Of a stretch of DNA of 64,000 nt, positions 1 to 6,000 are shown in pieces (the first letter of the stretch is position 1; every line of letters starts with the position of its first letter). A program made the position numbers. The stretch is from assembly GCA_028714635.1 (NCBI GenBank), contig JAQTLZ010000003.1:85237-149236 (forward strand), read 5' to 3'. This DNA comes from Minisyncoccota bacterium. GTDB taxonomy: Bacteria > Patescibacteriota > Minisyncoccia > Phycocordibacterales > JAQTLZ01.

Positions 1-3000
1 CCGTATGGTTTTCAGGAATAAGGATATCAATATCTCCAAAAGAACGAATGCCGTAGTCTTTGTAATAGAGCTCTACCAGTGCCAGGCCTTTGAAAAGTAT
101 GATTGGTATTTTTTCTGCTCTCAACCTCTTTAGTAGAGGCCGCACTGATTCGACAAGGTTATGTCCCAGAACCCATCTATCAAAATATATACCTCGCATC
201 TTTTCCTTATCTGGATCGTCTATACCGTGCCTTTCCAAATTTTGAAAGACTAGTGGAATAAGCCGAAGAGTATCAAAATTCATTCCCACGAAGGAGGGGT
301 TTTTTTCTCGCCATCTTCTCCATGCCTTTCCGGCGTCCTCCGCGCCATCAAGACCGGCATGGAGCAAATCTTCGTATTCTGGCTCAAGATGGGTAATCTG
401 TTTAAAAGGCGTCATATAATCTTCTAGACTTTTCTTAAAAAATCAATGAGAGTGTCGAGATTCTTAAGATTATTATCGCGCTCAAGATTAAAGCATCGCA
501 CTTGTTTTGTTAATGCGCACATATAATTCATATAGTCATCGTACAAATTCGGCTCTGAGAACGTAAAGAAAGGCTTTGTCATTTTTACCAGATGCAATGT
601 TGCCTCCTTTTTCGATAACTCTCGAATCTGAAACTGCTTCGCTTCTTGGAGAAAAAAAATAAAATCAATCCGAAATTCTTTGAAGAAAACGCAATCAAAG
701 GCTCTCCGAAGAGGAAATTCTTTCTTGAAGTACTTGCCAATTTTTTTTCGAGGGTATGGAAGCGCCTCTCCAAAAATGTGTTTTTCGGTTTTTGAGGTCA
801 CTCGCGACAACTCTTCGTAGCCGCTAGCGAAAAATATCCCTTTCTCTCTTCGTATAAGGGTATGATCTTCTGAAATAATCTGTGCGCCAGATTTCGCGAG
901 ACTAAGCGTAGTTGTTGATTTTCCCGCTCCGCTTTCCCCATCAAAAAGAATAGTTTTGTTTCCAAGCCGAAGCGCTGCGGCATGAAAGATGTGTATGCCA
1001 AGGGCAAAAAGTATTTTACGACTAAGCAACTGAAAGTATTTCCCAAAGGTAGCCCGAGATATTTTTCCTTCTCGGATCAAGGCAAGAACAGTGGTCTCCC
1101 CCCTCCTTCTTTTCACAAAGATGCGAAACCACGGCGACTTAAGCACGAGATGACTTTTGTTTGCATTAGTGGACATTGGCATTGTGCCGTAGGAAATAGT
1201 ATGGTTATCAGAAAAAATTTCTGAATCCTTAGCAATATCAACCATATAAATTTGTATGGTATTTTTGGCTGCCTTATGGTGGGGCAGATGCATAATCTTT
1301 TGCATAATAGAAGTTTCAAAGTATTGAATATAGTTCTTATGAGTTGCGTGAAGCTCAATTGCCCAGTCCTTTCCTAAACGAGTAAAAGTGCTCCGCTTCA
1401 TCTTTTGCTTCTTAACTTCTCGTTCAAGAGCTTCAAAATCTAAATTAAGTGAAGACATGTTTTTATTGATACTACGATACGTGTTTCTCGATCTGTGTTT
1501 TGATTTTTTCTATGAAAATACTGACATCAAATTTCCGTGCTCGTTCTGTGCAAGCCTTTCTGTACTTTTCCGGATTTTTCTCAAGCTCTTTTCCGATGTT
1601 TTGGATCGCTTTGGCAAGTTTCTTTGCGTTTATGTTTCGTATCAGTTTCCCCACTTTGCCATCTTGAACACTTTCCTTCAAGCCTCCTTCAAACGGGGCA
1701 ATAACCGCTTTGCCAGAAGCCATTGCTTCGATCACTGACATTCCAAAGTCCTCGTCCTTTGCCGTAAAAATAAAGCCCCTACATTCGCTTAATCTTTGTA
1801 TCAAATCCCTCCCTCCAATAACGCCGAGAAAATGAACATTGGGAGGCTTTATTTTTTTTAAAGCTTGGTAATAGAAATCGTTTTCTATCTGTCCTATTAT
1901 ATACAACTTTTCATCTGGCAGTTGTGAGAAGGCCACGAGCTGAAGTCTGATTCTTTTCATTGGAACAATTCTGTTCACAGAAATCCAGTAACCTTTTTGT
2001 TTTTTATATCCGTAATTGCTTGTCTCGACGGGGGGATATATAACAAGCGACCTTCTTTTGCATGCTTTTTTCAATTTTTGCGACGTATGAGCACTGTTGG
2101 TCGCTATGGTTTGAATATATTTCAGATTTTCTCCATAACTCAACTCCGGTCCATGAAGGGAAAAGGTTTCTCGTTGCTCTACAATATACTTGAGATAGCG
2201 ATCACCACCTTTTTCGAACAATGCCTTCACAAGAGCGTCGAAATTCTTTGACATTGTTTCATGTCGAAAGATGGGGTTTTGTATCCCATCGATAATTTTT
2301 GGTTCTTTGAAACCAATACTCGAAACATAGTGGCAGTAAAAAAGGTTTGGTGTGTGGATTTTCGCGGCATAGAGGGAAAGATGGCCGCTAAAGATGAAGA
2401 AATCGTACTCATCCCTTACATTTAACTCAGCGAATGCGGCTTGCCGCATAATGGGCAGATTGGGAAGCTTTTCATGGTTCAAAGTTTTAATGACAAGGTT
2501 TTTGGGTATGATTTTTTTCAGCTGATCTCTGAAATCAAACGTAATGATTTCTGTTTCTATTCCCTTTTTGTTTAATCCGCTCGAAAGAAGCGCCACCAGT
2601 TTTTCGGCTCCCCCGCACACAGTAAAATCATCGTGTAATATTGCTACTTTCATTTTCTTTGATCGAGTAAGGCTCGGATTGAAAACTTCTTATTCTTGAC
2701 TGGGGTGAAAAATTTTGTTAGAAATACACTACCATGAAATACATCGTGAACAAAGAGAAGACCCTTTCCCGCATTTTAGATGGAGAAGCAATTATTATTC
2801 AGAAAGAAACCAGTTATTTTTACGGTCTAAACAAAACAGGAACACTGGTCTGGGAATTATTGACCGCAAATGCAATGCCTCTCGAAATAGTAGTAAAAAA
2901 TTTGGCAGAGCAGTATGATCAACAAGAGAAAACAATCACTCCGGATGTAAAAAAATTTTTAGCAAGCCTCGTAAAAGGGCGCTTGATAAAAAGCGGGAAC

Positions 3001-6000
3001 GTAGCATCTGGAGCCACGTCACAAAGTAAGGTTTCTCGTCACAAAAAGACAGAAAAATACAACCCCCCGCTTTTGACAAAATTCGAAGCCTTAAACAATA
3101 TGATTGTGGCCGCTGTCTAAAGCCATTAGAAATTTCCTATAATTTTTCTTACTGTTCCTACAAAAGGAGTATAGGACGCTCCCAAATTCCTCTTCAGAAG
3201 CGCGATTGTACTGCGCTCAAGGGTAGGAATAATATTTCTTATTTTGTACTTAAAAAGGACGAAATAAGAACAACAAACCCAACGAGCGCTCTTTGATGGA
3301 AGAGAGAACCCTAATCTTTTCCGTTCGATCGCCCGGCCGCGTATTGTCTCTTTGGAAACCCATATCTCCTTCAGGGCGGCATCGGCAGTGATGCAAACAA
3401 GATCATTCCTCCTTTTTATTAATCGACGCGCCGAGAATGTATCACCCGTCTTATACATGACAATGCTACCCAGATTCATGGATTCTACGGGAGAAGATAT
3501 TACCACGAGCTCGTCTCCTGTTTTCAAGAACGGTTGCATAGAAATGCCCATAATAGTAAAGTTGATGGGCATTTCTGAATGATGGGACTTCATTGTTTCC
3601 AGAGATGTTTTTGCCATTTTCTTTTGTCCGTGTATCCGACCAACATGAATCGTTCTTTTAGTATACCATTTATGAAGAATCGAGAAAAACATCCTCTTGT
3701 GAGCGTTATTGTCCCCGTTTACAATGGTGAACGTTTTCTGAAAGGCGCTCTCGAAAGTATACTGGCCCAGTCATACGCCCATCTTGAGATACTCGTCATT
3801 GATGACGGCTCGACAGACGGTACTGCCGCGATTGCTCAATCGTTTCCAAATGTAACCTATTTTTTTCAAAAAAACCGGGGAGTAGCGGCGGCACGAAACA
3901 AAGGAATTCGGATGGCTACAGGAGAAGTACTTGCTTTTCTAGATGCTGACGATCTCTGGCCAAAACACAGGCTTGAACGCATGGTTTCTAAGATCGCCTC
4001 TCTTGACGCTCCTCAAATGGTCATTGGAACTACAAAATTATCCTTGTTTGAAAAATCTGGAAAGTACCGAAAAGAAATCAAAAGTTCAGAGAAACCAAAA
4101 ATTTTTTCTTTTGTCGGCGCAGCGATTTTTACACGTCATGTCTTTACATCTATTGGCGTGTTTCGTAAGATGCGTTTTGCGGAGAGCGTTGATCTTTTTT
4201 TTAGGATAAAAGAGAAGAACATTCCTACCACGGTAATTAGAGATATAACACTCATAAATCGGAAGCGTTCCGGCAGTATTACCGCGGAAAAGAGTGAGGA
4301 TGATTTGTTCGGCCATGTCGCGTTGGCGCTGAAAAGACATCTTCATCGTGCAAATGGTAAGTGAATTGGCAAGACAAAAGGATCTTCTAAAAACTCCCGA
4401 ATGAAAATACTAAGTATAATCAGTAACGGATATCCAATTATCGGCGGAGCACAGCTTGCCAATATCGCATATCTTAAAACATTATCAAAAAGATTTGATC
4501 ACGAGTGTTCGATCTTCACAAATTTTGATAAAAAAATAAAACATCGATATGGAAAAGTGAAATTGGAAACATTTAGAGATCTCGAAGAGTTGAGAGCGAT
4601 GACGGGCGTCTTCCATCCTGATGTTATCATTGCTTCATCACACATAAGCCATTACGCCGTAAAACTTGCGAAAAAGCTTGGAGTGCCTTCTTTGATATAT
4701 ATGCAAGATTATTCTTATTGTTCCGTTACGCCCCGAGAACAGGAAAGCTGGCAAATAGGAGGGCCAAACACGACGAAAGAAGGGCGAGAATTTGTAATGC
4801 AAGAAGCCGATATGGTGTGCTGTGTTTCGTATGCACTGCAAAAAAGGTTCTGGAAAGAATACAAAATTCATACCCCAGTCCTCTATTGCCCCTTTGAACC
4901 AAATAGTTTTCTGCTTGAAAAGCCACCGATCCAGAAGGAAAACTTAAGCTTTATCATGGGAACCAATTGTCTCTGGCCGCATAAAGGCGCGGACATTTTC
5001 CTGGAGCTTTGCCGTATTTTTCCAAATGAGAAATTCTTAATACCGCTCGCTGATATAGATCACCTGAAGCATCGTGAGCTCGAGGATAAAAGGAAAATGG
5101 TCATGCAAGGAAAGTGGGAAAGAAATTTTCGAAAGGCTCGAAAGCTCCGGAATCTTTTTACAGTCCCTTTTGATTCTATGAAAAGATACTTGAAAATGAG
5201 CAAAATCGTTCTTGTTCCCTCACAGTGGCCTGAGCCGTTCGGCAGAGTAGCAGTTGAAGCCATGGCAAATGGTATACCAACACTCGCAAGTTATACCGGG
5301 GGCTTAAAAGAAATTACCGGAGATTCTTCTCTTGCGGTGCGAAAATTTCAAACTGTAGATGAATGGGCAAAAAAAATAAAGAAGCTTCTTTTTGAAGAAA
5401 AAAGCTATCTCTTGAATAGAAGCGAAGGGCTGACACTTTCAAAAAAATTCCTTGGCAACGAGTCATCTATGCAGTTAGAGAAGATCCTCCGTACTCTAGC
5501 AAAAAATAAGAAAAAACCGGACTTGAAAAAGAACGTGGCGCTCCTTGGACACGATAATAAAAAATCGGCATATTCTGTCATCAATAGTGCCTGGGATGAG
5601 TGCGCAAAGAAAGACAGAGAGTATACGATATTTGGAGTAAAGAATTTCCATGATTTCCTACCGGTACCTATTGATTACCACATTCATCATGATTATTCCA
5701 ATGATTTCAAAAAAATAACTCTGCCGGAAGAGGGAAAGTTTATTTTTGTGCGATCGTGGGACTTTGGAAAGTTTCCGCCGGCGTTGGTCAAGAAAATAAA
5801 TGCCGAGTGTGATCAGCTCTGGGTCCACACGAAATGGATTCAGAAAAAAGCCATCGAAAGTGGCATTATCGAGGAACGGGTGAAAATTGTTCCGCTTGGA
5901 GTGGATGGAAAAATCTTTCATCCGAATGGCCCTCAATACCCACTTGCAACCAAGAAAAAATTTAAGTTTATTTTTGTCGGTGGAGCAGTAAAACGAAAAG

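What the first reader, a model, noticed from the sequence alone, without database searches (positions are those of the whole stretch)
1..4364. HprK-related kinase, PqqD-family protein and nucleotidyltransferase cassette, with an adjacent S24/S26-like peptidase, inside a glycosyltransferase locus
Directly visible: an HPr-kinase C-terminal-domain-like P-loop protein (GESGAGKST) is translationally coupled (8-nt gap) to a nucleotidyltransferase with GDIDILI. A PqqD-family protein with a 40-aa Ser/Thr/Lys-rich tail lies 1.3 kb away on the opposite strand with its own promoter. An S24/S26-like Ser-Lys peptidase abuts it. From established knowledge, PqqD domains are RiPP recognition elements that bind precursor peptides. 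HprK-like kinases phosphorylate lasso peptides in known RiPP clusters. To my recollection, this three-gene combination is catalogued in TIGRFAMs as the uncharacterised 'HPr-rel-A system', of unknown function. Here it sits among five GT4/GT2 glycosyltransferases, so it may modify a peptide or a glycan-linked carrier by phosphorylation or nucleotidylylation. No precursor-peptide gene is visible. The PqqD tail itself, or an unannotated sORF, could be the substrate.
Basis: partly seen in the sequence, partly recalled or inferred. Interest (0 to 1): 0.8.

Follow-up and report, generated by a model that had tools for sequence, protein, structure and literature searches.

The report
Peptide-tagging cassette with self-tethered leader
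A candidate-phylum bacterium carries, inside a sugar-transferase locus, a variant of a recently described peptide phosphorylation and glycosylation gene set in which the small peptide-docking protein has its own docking peptide fused to its end, a design that also turns up in hundreds of other bacterial species and is not described in the papers I could search.

Summary
The genes are real and the cassette is conserved. It is not the TIGRFAM 'HPr-rel-A system': the kinase scores 27.7 bits against a cut-off of 200, and the PqqD protein does not hit TIGR04353.

The closest known system is the LPP RiPP family (Popov et al. 2026, PMC13381572). That family combines an RRE, an archaeal-type signal peptidase, an HprK-like kinase and an NTP-transferase, and sits in polysaccharide loci of Bacillota.

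This Paceibacterota locus differs from LPP in four ways:
- It has no separate precursor gene and no exporter.
- The last 20 residues of the PqqD protein (YNPPLLTKFEALNNMIVAAV) carry the lasso/LPP-type leader motif [Y/F]xxPxL.
- This tail is the best conserved part of the protein. AlphaFold2 predicts it confidently, with a short beta-strand, which suggests that it docks on its own RRE.
- The peptidase-like protein keeps its serine but has Arg at the general-base position.

A longer version of the tail (FExPxLxKYTDMQDLLLLDPIHEVDExGWP) occurs on PqqD proteins in 503 reference-genome loci. Nearly all sampled loci have the same kinase next to it, plus GT2 genes and the NTase. NTase-kinase and kinase-PqqD fusions also exist.

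Most likely the PqqD protein is itself the docked acceptor or scaffold for phosphorylation followed by glycosylation. This is a new variant of a known kind.

The parts
1..415 (-). N-terminal 138 residues of a 384-aa NTP_transf_5 nucleotidyltransferase (PsmN/LppN-like). It is cut by the window edge. The GDIDILI metal-binding motif lies at 17-37.
   Evidence: PF14907 58.4 bits. The full gene is on L001 8896-10050. The motif was checked. PsmN D134A/D136A is inactive (PMC6993621).
424..1458 (-). HprK/PEPCK-fold P-loop kinase, 344 aa (ScmC-like clade). Walker A GESGAGKST is at 913-939, His159 at 982-984 and the acidic pair Glu197-Asp198 (followed by His199) at 862-870.
   Evidence: The family invariants H159, G179, K180 and D198 match the HprK core.
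416..423 (-). 8-nt spacer between the kinase stop codon and the NTase start codon (same operon).
   Evidence: The same kinase-NTase or NTase-kinase adjacency is seen in L091, L093 and many L007-L086 loci. Fusion proteins were found.
1472..2653 (-). GT4 glycosyltransferase, 393 aa, directly upstream of the kinase in the same operon.
   Evidence: PF00534 87 bits.
2734..2991 (+). RRE (PqqD, winged-helix) domain, residues 1-86, lasso-B1-like. Asn33, Asp71 and Phe75 align with LppB Asn33, Asp70 and Phe74, which hold the leader.
   Evidence: PF05402 49.8 bits. TbiB1 5v1u gives E 2.3e-7 with the single sequence and 7e-18 with the family profile; PbaB1 9x90 gives 6e-15 and LppB 9x8z 1e-6. Foldseek TM 0.91 to TbiB1. 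Residue mapping comes and PMC13381572.
2992..3057 (+). Variable linker, 22 aa, rich in Ser/Thr/Lys (SGNVASGATSQSKVSRHKKTEK).
   Evidence: Mean pairwise identity 0.20 among the four clade members, S/T 25-32%. Low pLDDT of 52-72.
3058..3117 (+). Conserved C-terminal leader-like tail YNPPLLTKFEALNNMIVAAV. It has the [Y/F]xxPxL RRE-binding motif and ends in [I/V]AAV-COOH.
   Evidence: Mean pairwise identity 0.62, against 0.48 for the RRE domain. pLDDT 93 with a beta-strand at residues 114-117. It aligns with the first half of the FExPxLxKYTDMQDLLLL... tail of the large family. It is the only such motif in the locus.
3126..3617 (-). Archaeal-type signal-peptidase-like (S26/S24-like) protein, 163 aa, convergent with the PqqD gene (5-nt gap). 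The Ser26 codon is at 3540-3542 and the Arg64 codon (general-base position) at 3426-3428. Asp79 is retained.
   Evidence: The 163-aa start is supported by the gene call, by the public record and by the L087 homologue.
3645..4364 (+). GT2 glycosyltransferase, 239 aa.
   Evidence: PF00535 130.6 bits; gene call.
4401..8916 (.). Three further genes that carry four GT4 modules: 4401-6734 (+, a double GT4), 6731-7813 (-) and 7825-8916 (-). They mark the right-hand edge of the locus.
   Evidence: The next genes are NUDIX, APH-family and others.

Best explanation
This is an LPP-like or lasso-tailoring-like module for modifying a peptide or small protein. It sits in the glycan locus of a Paceibacterota (CPR) bacterium.

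The PqqD protein is an RRE that carries its own leader-like peptide in cis. The C-terminal [Y]xxPxL tail folds back into the RRE's leader cleft. The signal-peptidase-like partner has Ser kept and His/Lys changed to Arg. It probably binds the end of the tail (...VAAV-COOH), as LppS binds the end of the LppA leader, and it may not cut.

This assembly presents a hydroxyl residue of the PqqD protein itself to the HprK-like kinase. Candidates are Thr115, which is invariant in the clade, or the Ser/Thr-rich linker loop. The coupled NTP_transf_5 enzyme then adds a sugar to the phosphate, as PsmN does. The surrounding GT4, GT2 and GT8 enzymes and the SDR would build and extend the glycan.

Shown here:
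- gene content, the folds, and catalytic motifs of the kinase and the NTase that appear intact;
- conservation of the cassette, and the fusion proteins;
- conservation of the tail and its resemblance to a leader;
- the Arg substitution in the peptidase-like protein.

Inferred:
- cis docking, from AF2 confidence and secondary structure and from a Tyr/Asp co-variation;
- the role of the peptidase-like protein;
- the acceptor residue;
- that the PqqD protein is the substrate.
For: - Module identity. The kinase has an HprK/PEPCK fold and matches the HprK core residues. The NTase is PF14907 with its DxD motif. The RRE is closest to lasso B1 proteins and LppB.
- Published precedent. [quoted passage not shown] Its leader has YxxPxV and its kinase polyphosphorylates Ser3 of the core (PMC13381572). 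PsmK and PsmN phosphorylate and hexosylate a Ser (PMC6993621).
- Functional linkage. The same peptidase-like, PqqD and kinase arrangement occurs in L087, L088 and L089. Of the 80 genome loci picked by the PqqD tail alone, about 76 have the kinase, about 73 have GT2 genes and about 71 have the NTase. NTase-kinase and kinase-PqqD fusions exist.
- The tail. It is the best conserved segment: identity 0.62, against 0.48 for the RRE and 0.20 for the linker. In 199 of 201 aligned family members the Pro of the motif is kept, and in 191 the Leu. It is the only leader-like motif in the locus.
- Cis docking. The AF2 model gives tail residues 111-120 a pLDDT of 93 and a beta-strand at 114-117, after a low-confidence linker. 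In solved RRE-leader complexes the leader adds a strand right after the motif (PMC13381572).
- Co-variation. All four tails with Tyr at motif position 0 have Asp at the RRE site equivalent to LppB D70, the residue that hydrogen-bonds the leader Tyr. Only 3 of 195 Phe tails have Asp there.
- Comparator. A relative with a tail-less PqqD (L090) has a separate 57-aa peptide with YQRPEV and a peptidase with Ser and His intact.
Against: - No modification, binding or cleavage has been observed.
- The model coordinates could not be inspected, so cis docking rests on pLDDT and DSSP only. Docking in trans between molecules would look the same.
- The Tyr/Asp co-variation comes from only about two independent lineages.
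- The tail of the window clade ends about four residues past the position equivalent to the LPP leader/core junction, so there is almost no 'core' after the motif.
- The position that is Thr or Ser in 188 of 201 tails of the large family is Glu in all four window-clade tails.
- The known kinases of this kind accept Ser only (LppA S3T is not phosphorylated), whereas the candidate here is Thr.
- With Arg at the base position the peptidase-like protein may be inactive, or it may act in a way not foreseen here.
- No exporter lies nearby.
- Only part of the genome was searched for a separate precursor.
Confidence: 0.42

Rival explanations
1. Leader in cis as a permanent 'on' switch or adaptor. The fused tail keeps the RRE constantly loaded. 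The complex of RRE, tail and peptidase-like protein is then a scaffold or activator for the kinase and the NTase. These enzymes act on leaderless targets: other proteins, or glycan or lipid-linked intermediates of the surrounding glycosyltransferase pathway. On this reading the PqqD protein is a subunit, not a substrate.
For: - The distal tail is almost invariant across phyla (LLLLDPIHEVDExGWP). That fits a protein-protein interface better than a diversifying core.
- The window-clade tail has practically no core after the leader-like part.
- The peptidase-like protein has lost its general base. This fits a binding-only role.
- From my own knowledge, not tested here: engineered lanthipeptide synthetases with the leader fused in cis are constitutively active, and the catalytically dead signal-peptidase homologue SipA of Streptococcus pyogenes acts as a chaperone.
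- Two to five GT2 genes plus an SDR or epimerase are always present, so a glycan product is certain.
Against: - Every characterised kinase/NTase pair of this type acts on the RRE-bound peptide (PMC6993621, PMC13381572).
- No other candidate acceptor is encoded in the conserved operons.
- A near-invariant Thr/Ser sits inside the tail of the large family (188 of 201).
Confidence: 0.28
2. Canonical LPP-like pathway with a precursor encoded elsewhere. A separate YxxPxL-leader peptide gene lies outside the locus. The tail only auto-inhibits or regulates the RRE until that precursor is made.
For: - LPP and lasso systems use separate precursors (PMC13381572).
- The relative L090 has one next to its tail-less PqqD.
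- Only 64 kb of the MAG, plus 3.5 kb beyond the left edge, could be scanned.
Against: - The strict motif occurs only twice in six frames of the 64-kb window: the tail itself, and one hit inside a 215-aa ORF at 58644.
- None was found beside the PqqD genes of 87 related loci, beyond background.
- Auto-inhibition does not explain why the tail is more conserved than the RRE.
- It also does not explain why the peptidase has lost its base in exactly the clade that has the short tail.
Confidence: 0.15
3. Member of the TIGRFAM 'HPr-rel-A system' of unknown function.
For: The gene trio is similar (HprK-related kinase, PqqD, nucleotidyltransferase). There are weak local hits to TIGR04352 and TIGR04355 around the P-loop.
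Against: - The kinase scores 27.7 and 31.7 bits against cut-offs of 200.
- TIGR04353 does not hit the PqqD protein.
- A cyanobacterial kinase of the larger family also fails, at 34.4 bits.
- The PqqD protein is closer to the lasso-type chaperone models.
Confidence: 0.05
4. Chance neighbourhood: unrelated genes that happen to lie in a glycosyltransferase island.
For: None beyond the low scores of single proteins against curated models.
Against: The arrangement is conserved in L087, L088 and L089 and in the 80-locus census, and fusion proteins exist.
Confidence: 0.01

Closest known systems
LPP (linear polyphosphorylated peptide) RiPP gene clusters of Bacillota: LppA, K, B, S, D and N (Popov et al., Nat Commun 2026, PMC13381572)
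   Same: - A discrete PqqD-type RRE, an archaeal-type signal-peptidase-like protein next to it, an HprK-like kinase and an uncharacterised NTP-transferase.
- The cluster is embedded in a polysaccharide locus rich in glycosyltransferases.
- Both use a [Y]xxPx[V/L] RRE-binding motif.
- The RRE residues equivalent to LppB N33, D70 and F74 are present (N33, D71, F75).
   Different: - The host is Paceibacterota. The paper describes LPP as restricted to Bacillota.
- There is no separate LppA-like precursor. The motif is fused to the C-terminus of the RRE through a linker.
- The peptidase-like protein has Arg where LppS has the catalytic His68.
- There is no MsbA-like exporter nearby.
- The RRE is nearer to lasso B1 proteins than to LppB (TbiB1 2.3e-7 against LppB 0.086 with the single sequence).
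- The kinase could not be compared directly with LppK.
Kinase and nucleotidyltransferase tailoring pair of paeninodin and pseudomycoidin lasso peptides: PadeK/PsmK and PsmN (PMC6993621, PMC8498205)
   Same: - An HprK-like kinase with an acidic metal-binding pair, and an NTP_transf_5-type enzyme with a DxD motif, encoded together with a PqqD RRE.
- The chemistry there is Ser phosphorylation followed by hexose on the phosphate.
   Different: There is no lasso cyclase and no B2 protease in the locus or among the large ORFs of the window. There is no precursor gene.
NCBIfam/TIGRFAM HprK-related cassettes: HPr-rel-A (TIGR04352), HprK_rel_B of the GeoRSP system (TIGR04355), SynChlorMet ScmC/ScmD (TIGR04249/TIGR04248; Pfam PF27840)
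   Same: A distant HprK-like P-loop kinase is paired with a PqqD-family protein. The precomputed Pfam hit of the kinase is PF27840 ScmC, marked weak.
   Different: All curated scores are far below the cut-offs. There is no radical SAM/SPASM enzyme in the locus.
HPr kinase/phosphorylase (HprK/P) and PEP carboxykinase P-loop fold
   Same: The fold and the core residues agree: His before the P-loop, GxxGxGKS/T, and an acidic pair after it.
   Different: The N-terminal domain is different, and there is no HPr or PTS context. It scores below the Pfam Hpr_kinase_C cut-off (22.5 against 33.3).
The large family of tail-bearing PqqD operons found here (PqqD-tail, kinase, GT2 x 2-5, SDR or epimerase, sometimes an ABC exporter, NTP_transf_5). 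I found no description of it in the paper library.
   Same: The kinase, RRE and NTase are homologous. The tail begins with the same [F/Y]xxPxLxK[Y/F] motif after a variable linker.
   Different: - The large family has a longer tail (...TDMQDLLLLDPIHEVDExGWP) and no peptidase-like gene.
- It uses GT2 rather than GT4.
- The window clade stops at ...[I/V]AAV and adds the peptidase-like protein.

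Membership tests
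HPr-rel-A system (TIGR04352 / TIGR04353) | The kinase reaches the TIGR04352 cut-off (200 bits). | tested here: not met
   27.7 bits, a local match around the P-loop only. A cyanobacterial relative scores 34.4 bits.
HPr-rel-A system (TIGR04352 / TIGR04353) | The PqqD protein matches the system's own PqqD model (TIGR04353). | tested here: not met
   No hit at E <= 0.1. The best NCBIfam hit is the lasso chaperone model NF033536, 44.3 bits against a cut-off of 80.
HPr-rel-A system (TIGR04352 / TIGR04353) | A nucleotidyltransferase gene is adjacent. | tested here: met
PF14907 58.4 bits, 8 nt after the kinase gene.
LPP RiPP family (PMC13381572) | [quoted passage not shown] | tested here: met
   PF05402 49.8 bits. 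The neighbour has weak S24 and sigpep_I_arch hits and the GxSMxP...GD motif. The pairing is conserved in L087, L088 and L089.
LPP RiPP family (PMC13381572) | The leader peptidase has the Ser/His/Asp catalytic residues (LppS S29, H68, D93). | tested here: not met
   Ser26 and Asp79 are present. The base position is Arg64 in the window, L087, L088 and L089. It is His only in the distant relative L090.
LPP RiPP family (PMC13381572) | An HprK-like kinase and an uncharacterised NTP-transferase are in the core. | tested here: met
   No direct comparison with the LppK or LppN sequences was possible.
LPP RiPP family (PMC13381572) | A separately encoded precursor with an N-terminal YxxPxVLxHQxIxFETxxS leader. 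| tested here: not met
   None was found in six frames of the locus. A related motif (Y..P.L..F..L) is fused to the RRE instead.
LPP RiPP family (PMC13381572) | An MsbA-like ABC exporter is in the core cluster. | tested here: not met
   None was found from L001 1-12375 through window 17638, nor among the large ORFs of the window.
LPP RiPP family (PMC13381572) | The product is a polyphosphorylated linear peptide. | not testable with these tools
   This needs expression and mass spectrometry.
Lasso peptide gene cluster | A lasso cyclase (Asn-synthetase-like C) and a B2 transglutaminase-like protease. | tested here: not met
   No such Pfam family was found on any gene of L001 or on the large ORFs of the window.
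Lasso-type RRE (B1 / PqqD chaperone) | A winged-helix RRE fold with a leader cleft that binds [Y/W]xxPxL. | tested here: inconclusive
   The fold is met (Foldseek TM 0.91 to TbiB1; phmmer 2.3e-7). The curated lasso chaperone model is below its cut-off (44.3 against 80). Binding was not tested.
HPr kinase/phosphorylase | Pfam Hpr_kinase_C at the gathering score; HPr as the substrate. | tested here: not met
   22.5 bits against 33.3. TIGR00679 scores 23.2 against 240. Only the fold and the catalytic core are shared.

The most novel reading that the evidence does not exclude
PqqD proteins that carry their own leader-like peptide in cis form a widespread class that is not described in the papers I could search. 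It comprises 503 loci in reference genomes of many phyla, at least 5,700 protein clusters, and this Paceibacterota clade. In this class the RiPP recognition element is also the acceptor, or primer, of a phosphate-linked glycan made by an HprK-like kinase, an NTP_transf_5 enzyme and glycosyltransferases. In effect this would be a self-recognising, protein-primed glycosylation system. In the window clade a signal-peptidase homologue that has lost its catalytic base would have been kept as a clamp for the end of the tail.
Probability: 0.3. Interest if true: 0.8.

Novelty: new variant of a known kind. Interest (0 to 1): 0.62.

Why it matters
The products and roles of the kinase/NTP-transferase tailoring pair and of the LPP family are still unknown. 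In the published work the NTase was silent in the heterologous host, and the final product was not found.

The fused RRE-leader design has three consequences:
- Any role for the recognition motif can be tested on one defined small protein.
- It extends the system from Bacillota to Paceibacterota and, in the long-tail form, to many other phyla. These include culturable cyanobacteria (Oscillatoria PCC 10802, Planktothrix, Anabaena) in which genetics is feasible.
- It gives a natural example of a leader tethered in cis, and of a signal-peptidase homologue without its general base.

If the PqqD protein is the acceptor, this would be a new route to protein- or peptide-linked phosphoglycans in bacteria.

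Tried and rejected
- The word-indexed protein search with the kinase found only the protein itself. The exhaustive HMMER search was needed.
- PADLOC defence models gave no hit for the four core proteins.
- Literature searches for ScmC/SynChlorMet and for HPr-rel-A, TIGR04352, TIGR04353 and PF14907 gave nothing relevant.
- The promoter and terminator scan was not above shuffles and found nothing upstream of the PqqD gene.
- A tail-like string 'YECPKLTKYPKL' in L007 lies antisense inside a 482-aa gene and was rejected as chance.
- Loose [YW]xxPx[LVIFA] hits in small ORFs of the locus are all out-of-frame or antisense inside genes.
- The top PDB sequence hits of the PqqD protein to the designed repeat proteins 'Cake' and 'Bagel' are sums of tiny repeated matches, not homology.
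- The metagenome scan for the peptidase-like protein gave only two loci.
- The contigs of the kinase relatives P0062, P0063 and P0064 were too short to show a PqqD or peptidase gene.
- No conserved peptidase was found in the operons of the large family.
- The S24-like gene of L088 is broken by an assembly gap, so its Ser motif is unreadable.

Full report
WHAT IS THERE

Window 1-4364 holds five core genes plus glycosyltransferases.
- On the minus strand lies the first 138 residues of an NTP_transf_5 nucleotidyltransferase (1-415, PF14907 58.4 bits, GDIDILI at 17-37).
- Eight bases upstream lies a 344-aa P-loop protein (424-1458, GESGAGKST at 913-939), and then a GT4 (1472-2653).
- On the plus strand lies a 128-aa PqqD protein (2734-3120, PF05402 49.8 bits).
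- Convergent with it, after 5 nt, lies a 163-aa S24/S26-like protein (3126-3617, minus).
- A GT2 and four more GT4 modules follow.

A Logan contig with identical sequence (L001) extends 3.5 kb past the left edge. It shows the full 384-aa NTase, an SDR and a GT8. Public records name the source a Candidatus Pacebacteria/Paceibacterota MAG. They annotate the proteins only as 'PqqD family', 'hypothetical' and 'nucleotidyltransferase family'.

THE KINASE

It fails every curated model:
- Pfam Hpr_kinase_C: 22.5 bits against 33.3.
- TIGR04352: 27.7 against 200.
- TIGR04355: 31.7 against 200.

THE GENES BELONG TOGETHER

Several family members are fusions: NTP_transf_5 plus kinase (about 700 aa, seven examples scanned), and kinase plus PqqD. 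Neighbourhoods of NTase homologues contain PqqD, kinase and GTs in L003, L005 and L006, and PqqD, an unannotated kinase homologue (recognised) and GTs in L002; L004 has a lone NTase. The nearest kinase relatives (about 40% identity) have the same arrangement of peptidase-like gene, PqqD and kinase (L087, L088). A metagenome scan with the peptidase-like protein brought in L089 with the same arrangement.

THE TAIL

When I aligned the PqqD proteins of related loci, I saw that they all carry a C-terminal extension. It consists of a variable linker and then a strongly conserved motif.

A scan of one genome per species with that motif found 503 loci. They come from Cyanobacteria, Nitrospirota, Chloroflexota, Acidobacteriota, Verrucomicrobiota, Thermodesulfobacteriota, Gaiellales and others. 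A protein search returned at least 5,753 proteins. The consensus is [KR][PL]xFExPxLxKY[T/S]DM[Q/E]DLLLLDPIH[E/D]VD[E/D]xGWP. In the 80 loci fetched on the tail alone, my HMM census found the kinase in about 76, GT2 genes in about 73, NTP_transf_5 in about 71, an SDR in about 28 and an ABC exporter in about 24; several of the loci that lack one lie on truncated contigs. The peptidase-like gene was found in none. A kinase and two PqqD proteins of this family also fail the HPr-rel-A models.

The window's tail, YNPPLLTKFEALNNMIVAAV, aligns with the first half of that motif and then stops. The same short form is seen in L087 (YEIPKLTKYEKLEKLFVAAV), L088 (FEAPKLTKFEKLEKMLIAAV) and L089 (YEPPTVTKYEKLEKLIIAAV). 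In this clade the tail is more conserved (0.62 mean identity) than the RRE domain (0.48) or the linker (0.20).

THE TAIL LOOKS LIKE A LEADER

[Y/W]xxPx[L/V/I/F/A] is the motif by which lasso and LPP leader peptides bind discrete RREs. In crystal structures the residues after it add a beta-strand to the RRE sheet. The Tyr hydroxyl bonds to an Asp (LppB D70), an Asn (N33) fixes the Pro kink, and a Phe (F74) divides the two pockets (PMC13381572).

Four observations connect the window protein to this:
- Its RRE is closest to the lasso B1 proteins TbiB1, PbaB1 and TfuB1, and to LppB.
- It has Asn33, Asp71 and Phe75 at the equivalent positions.
- AF2, run with 120 homologues, gives a low-confidence linker (pLDDT 52-72). 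This is followed by a confident tail (93 for residues 111-120) with a strand at 114-117.
- Across 201 sequences, Tyr at motif position 0 always goes with Asp at the D70-equivalent site (4 of 4, including one long-tail member, L061). Phe goes with Ala, Gly or Ser (168 of 195).

The Fisher p-value for the last point is 5.5e-7, but it rests on only about two independent lineages. I could not inspect the coordinates. Docking in cis, or in trans between molecules, is therefore inferred and not shown.

THE PEPTIDASE-LIKE PROTEIN

It keeps the nucleophile box GxSMxPFLKxGD and an Asp in the GDxx box. At the general-base position it has Arg. The sequence there is ARRL in the window, ARRF in L087, ARRV in L089 and VRRL in L088. 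This position aligns with LexA Lys156 and with the His of LHRL in the more distant L090 protein. The L090 protein scores 48.7 bits on the archaeal-type signal peptidase model. The protein derives from the archaeal/SipW type, like LppS (S29, H68, D93), and has lost the His.

L090 is an instructive comparator. It has a tail-less 100-aa PqqD, a radical SAM/SPASM enzyme and a separate 57-aa Cys-rich peptide with YQRPEV. It also has the kinase, a peptidase with Ser and His intact, and the NTase. Within this small sample, a fused tail goes with a lost base, and a separate precursor goes with an intact base.

COMPARISON WITH WHAT IS KNOWN

The closest published system is the LPP family (Popov et al. 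2026). [quoted passage not shown] It is embedded in capsule loci of Bacillota. Its precursor has a YxxPxVLxHQxIxFET|xxS leader. Ser3 of the core is polyphosphorylated, cleavage needs the RRE, and the NTase was silent in the heterologous host. In pseudomycoidin, PsmK phosphorylates the C-terminal Ser and PsmN is needed for one or two hexoses on the phosphate.

The window locus shares the four core protein types and the genomic context. It fails three LPP features that I could test: the catalytic His, a separate precursor and an exporter. It lies in a phylum outside the one to which LPP was said to be restricted. There is no lasso cyclase or B2 protease. I found no paper describing an RRE with a fused leader-like tail, or the long-tail operon family. 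The library does not cover all journals.

MECHANISM

I commit to the following, at about 0.4 confidence.
- The tail docks on the RRE.
- The peptidase-like protein holds the end of the tail.
- The kinase phosphorylates a hydroxyl residue of the PqqD protein. Thr115 is the only invariant hydroxyl residue in the docked segment of this clade; the Ser/Thr-rich linker is the alternative.
- The NTase adds the first sugar to the phosphate.
- The GTs extend the glycan.

The main rival (about 0.3) is that the permanently loaded RRE is an adaptor or activator, and the substrate is something else. A separate precursor elsewhere in the genome remains possible (about 0.15).

Several things are unexplained:
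- why Arg replaces the base;
- why all four tails end in [I/V]AAV;
- why the Thr/Ser of KY[T/S]DM in the large family is Glu in this clade.

VERDICT

The filing under HPr-rel-A is wrong. The locus is a new variant of the recently described LPP/lasso-tailoring kind. Its cis-tethered leader-like tail links it to a very large operon family that I did not find described in the searchable literature.

Noticed in passing
L090 4407-8581 (metagenome contig Ga0307991_1001225): A RiPP-type cluster that is not matched by any curated family. It encodes a tail-less PqqD, a radical SAM/SPASM enzyme and a 57-aa Cys-rich peptide with a YQRPEV leader motif. It also encodes an HprK-like kinase, an archaeal-type signal peptidase with Ser and His intact, and NTP_transf_5.
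   Followed up: partly
L007-L086 (80 genome loci; for example L009 Oscillatoria sp. PCC 10802, L028 Planktothrix, L077 Anabaena catenula): A large operon family built of tail-bearing PqqD, kinase, two to five GT2 genes, an SDR or epimerase, and NTP_transf_5 (often two copies). About a third also have an ABC exporter, 21 have an SMP-30/gluconolactonase-like protein and 16 have a sensor histidine kinase. No peptidase is conserved.
   Followed up: partly
window 19891-25160 (-): Two large proteins, both ending in a PG_binding_1 domain. One has NHL repeats (948 aa) and one has LamG plus fn3 domains (773 aa). They look like cell-surface proteins and lie in a stretch of higher G+C (0.45-0.49, against about 0.40 in the GT locus).
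   Followed up: no
window 8977-10325 (-): A NUDIX hydrolase and an APH-family phosphotransferase lie directly next to the glycosyltransferase block. It was not examined whether they belong to the same pathway.
   Followed up: no
window 52976-57601 (-): T2SS/type IV pilus platform protein F and ATPase E genes. Elsewhere in the window are NAD-dependent DNA ligase, CTP synthase and an amidase. These are ordinary housekeeping genes.
   Followed up: no
window 10353-11501, 16649-17638 and 38427-41102 (-): Three sizeable ORFs (382, 329 and 891 aa) without any Pfam match at the thresholds used.
   Followed up: no
L088 about 4040-4050: A run of N (an assembly gap) interrupts the N-terminal part of the peptidase-like gene, so its serine motif cannot be read in that relative.
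   Followed up: yes
L007 11958 (+): The string YECPKLTKYPKL, very like the window-clade tail, occurs antisense inside a 482-aa gene and has no ORF of its own. I judged it to be chance.
   Followed up: yes
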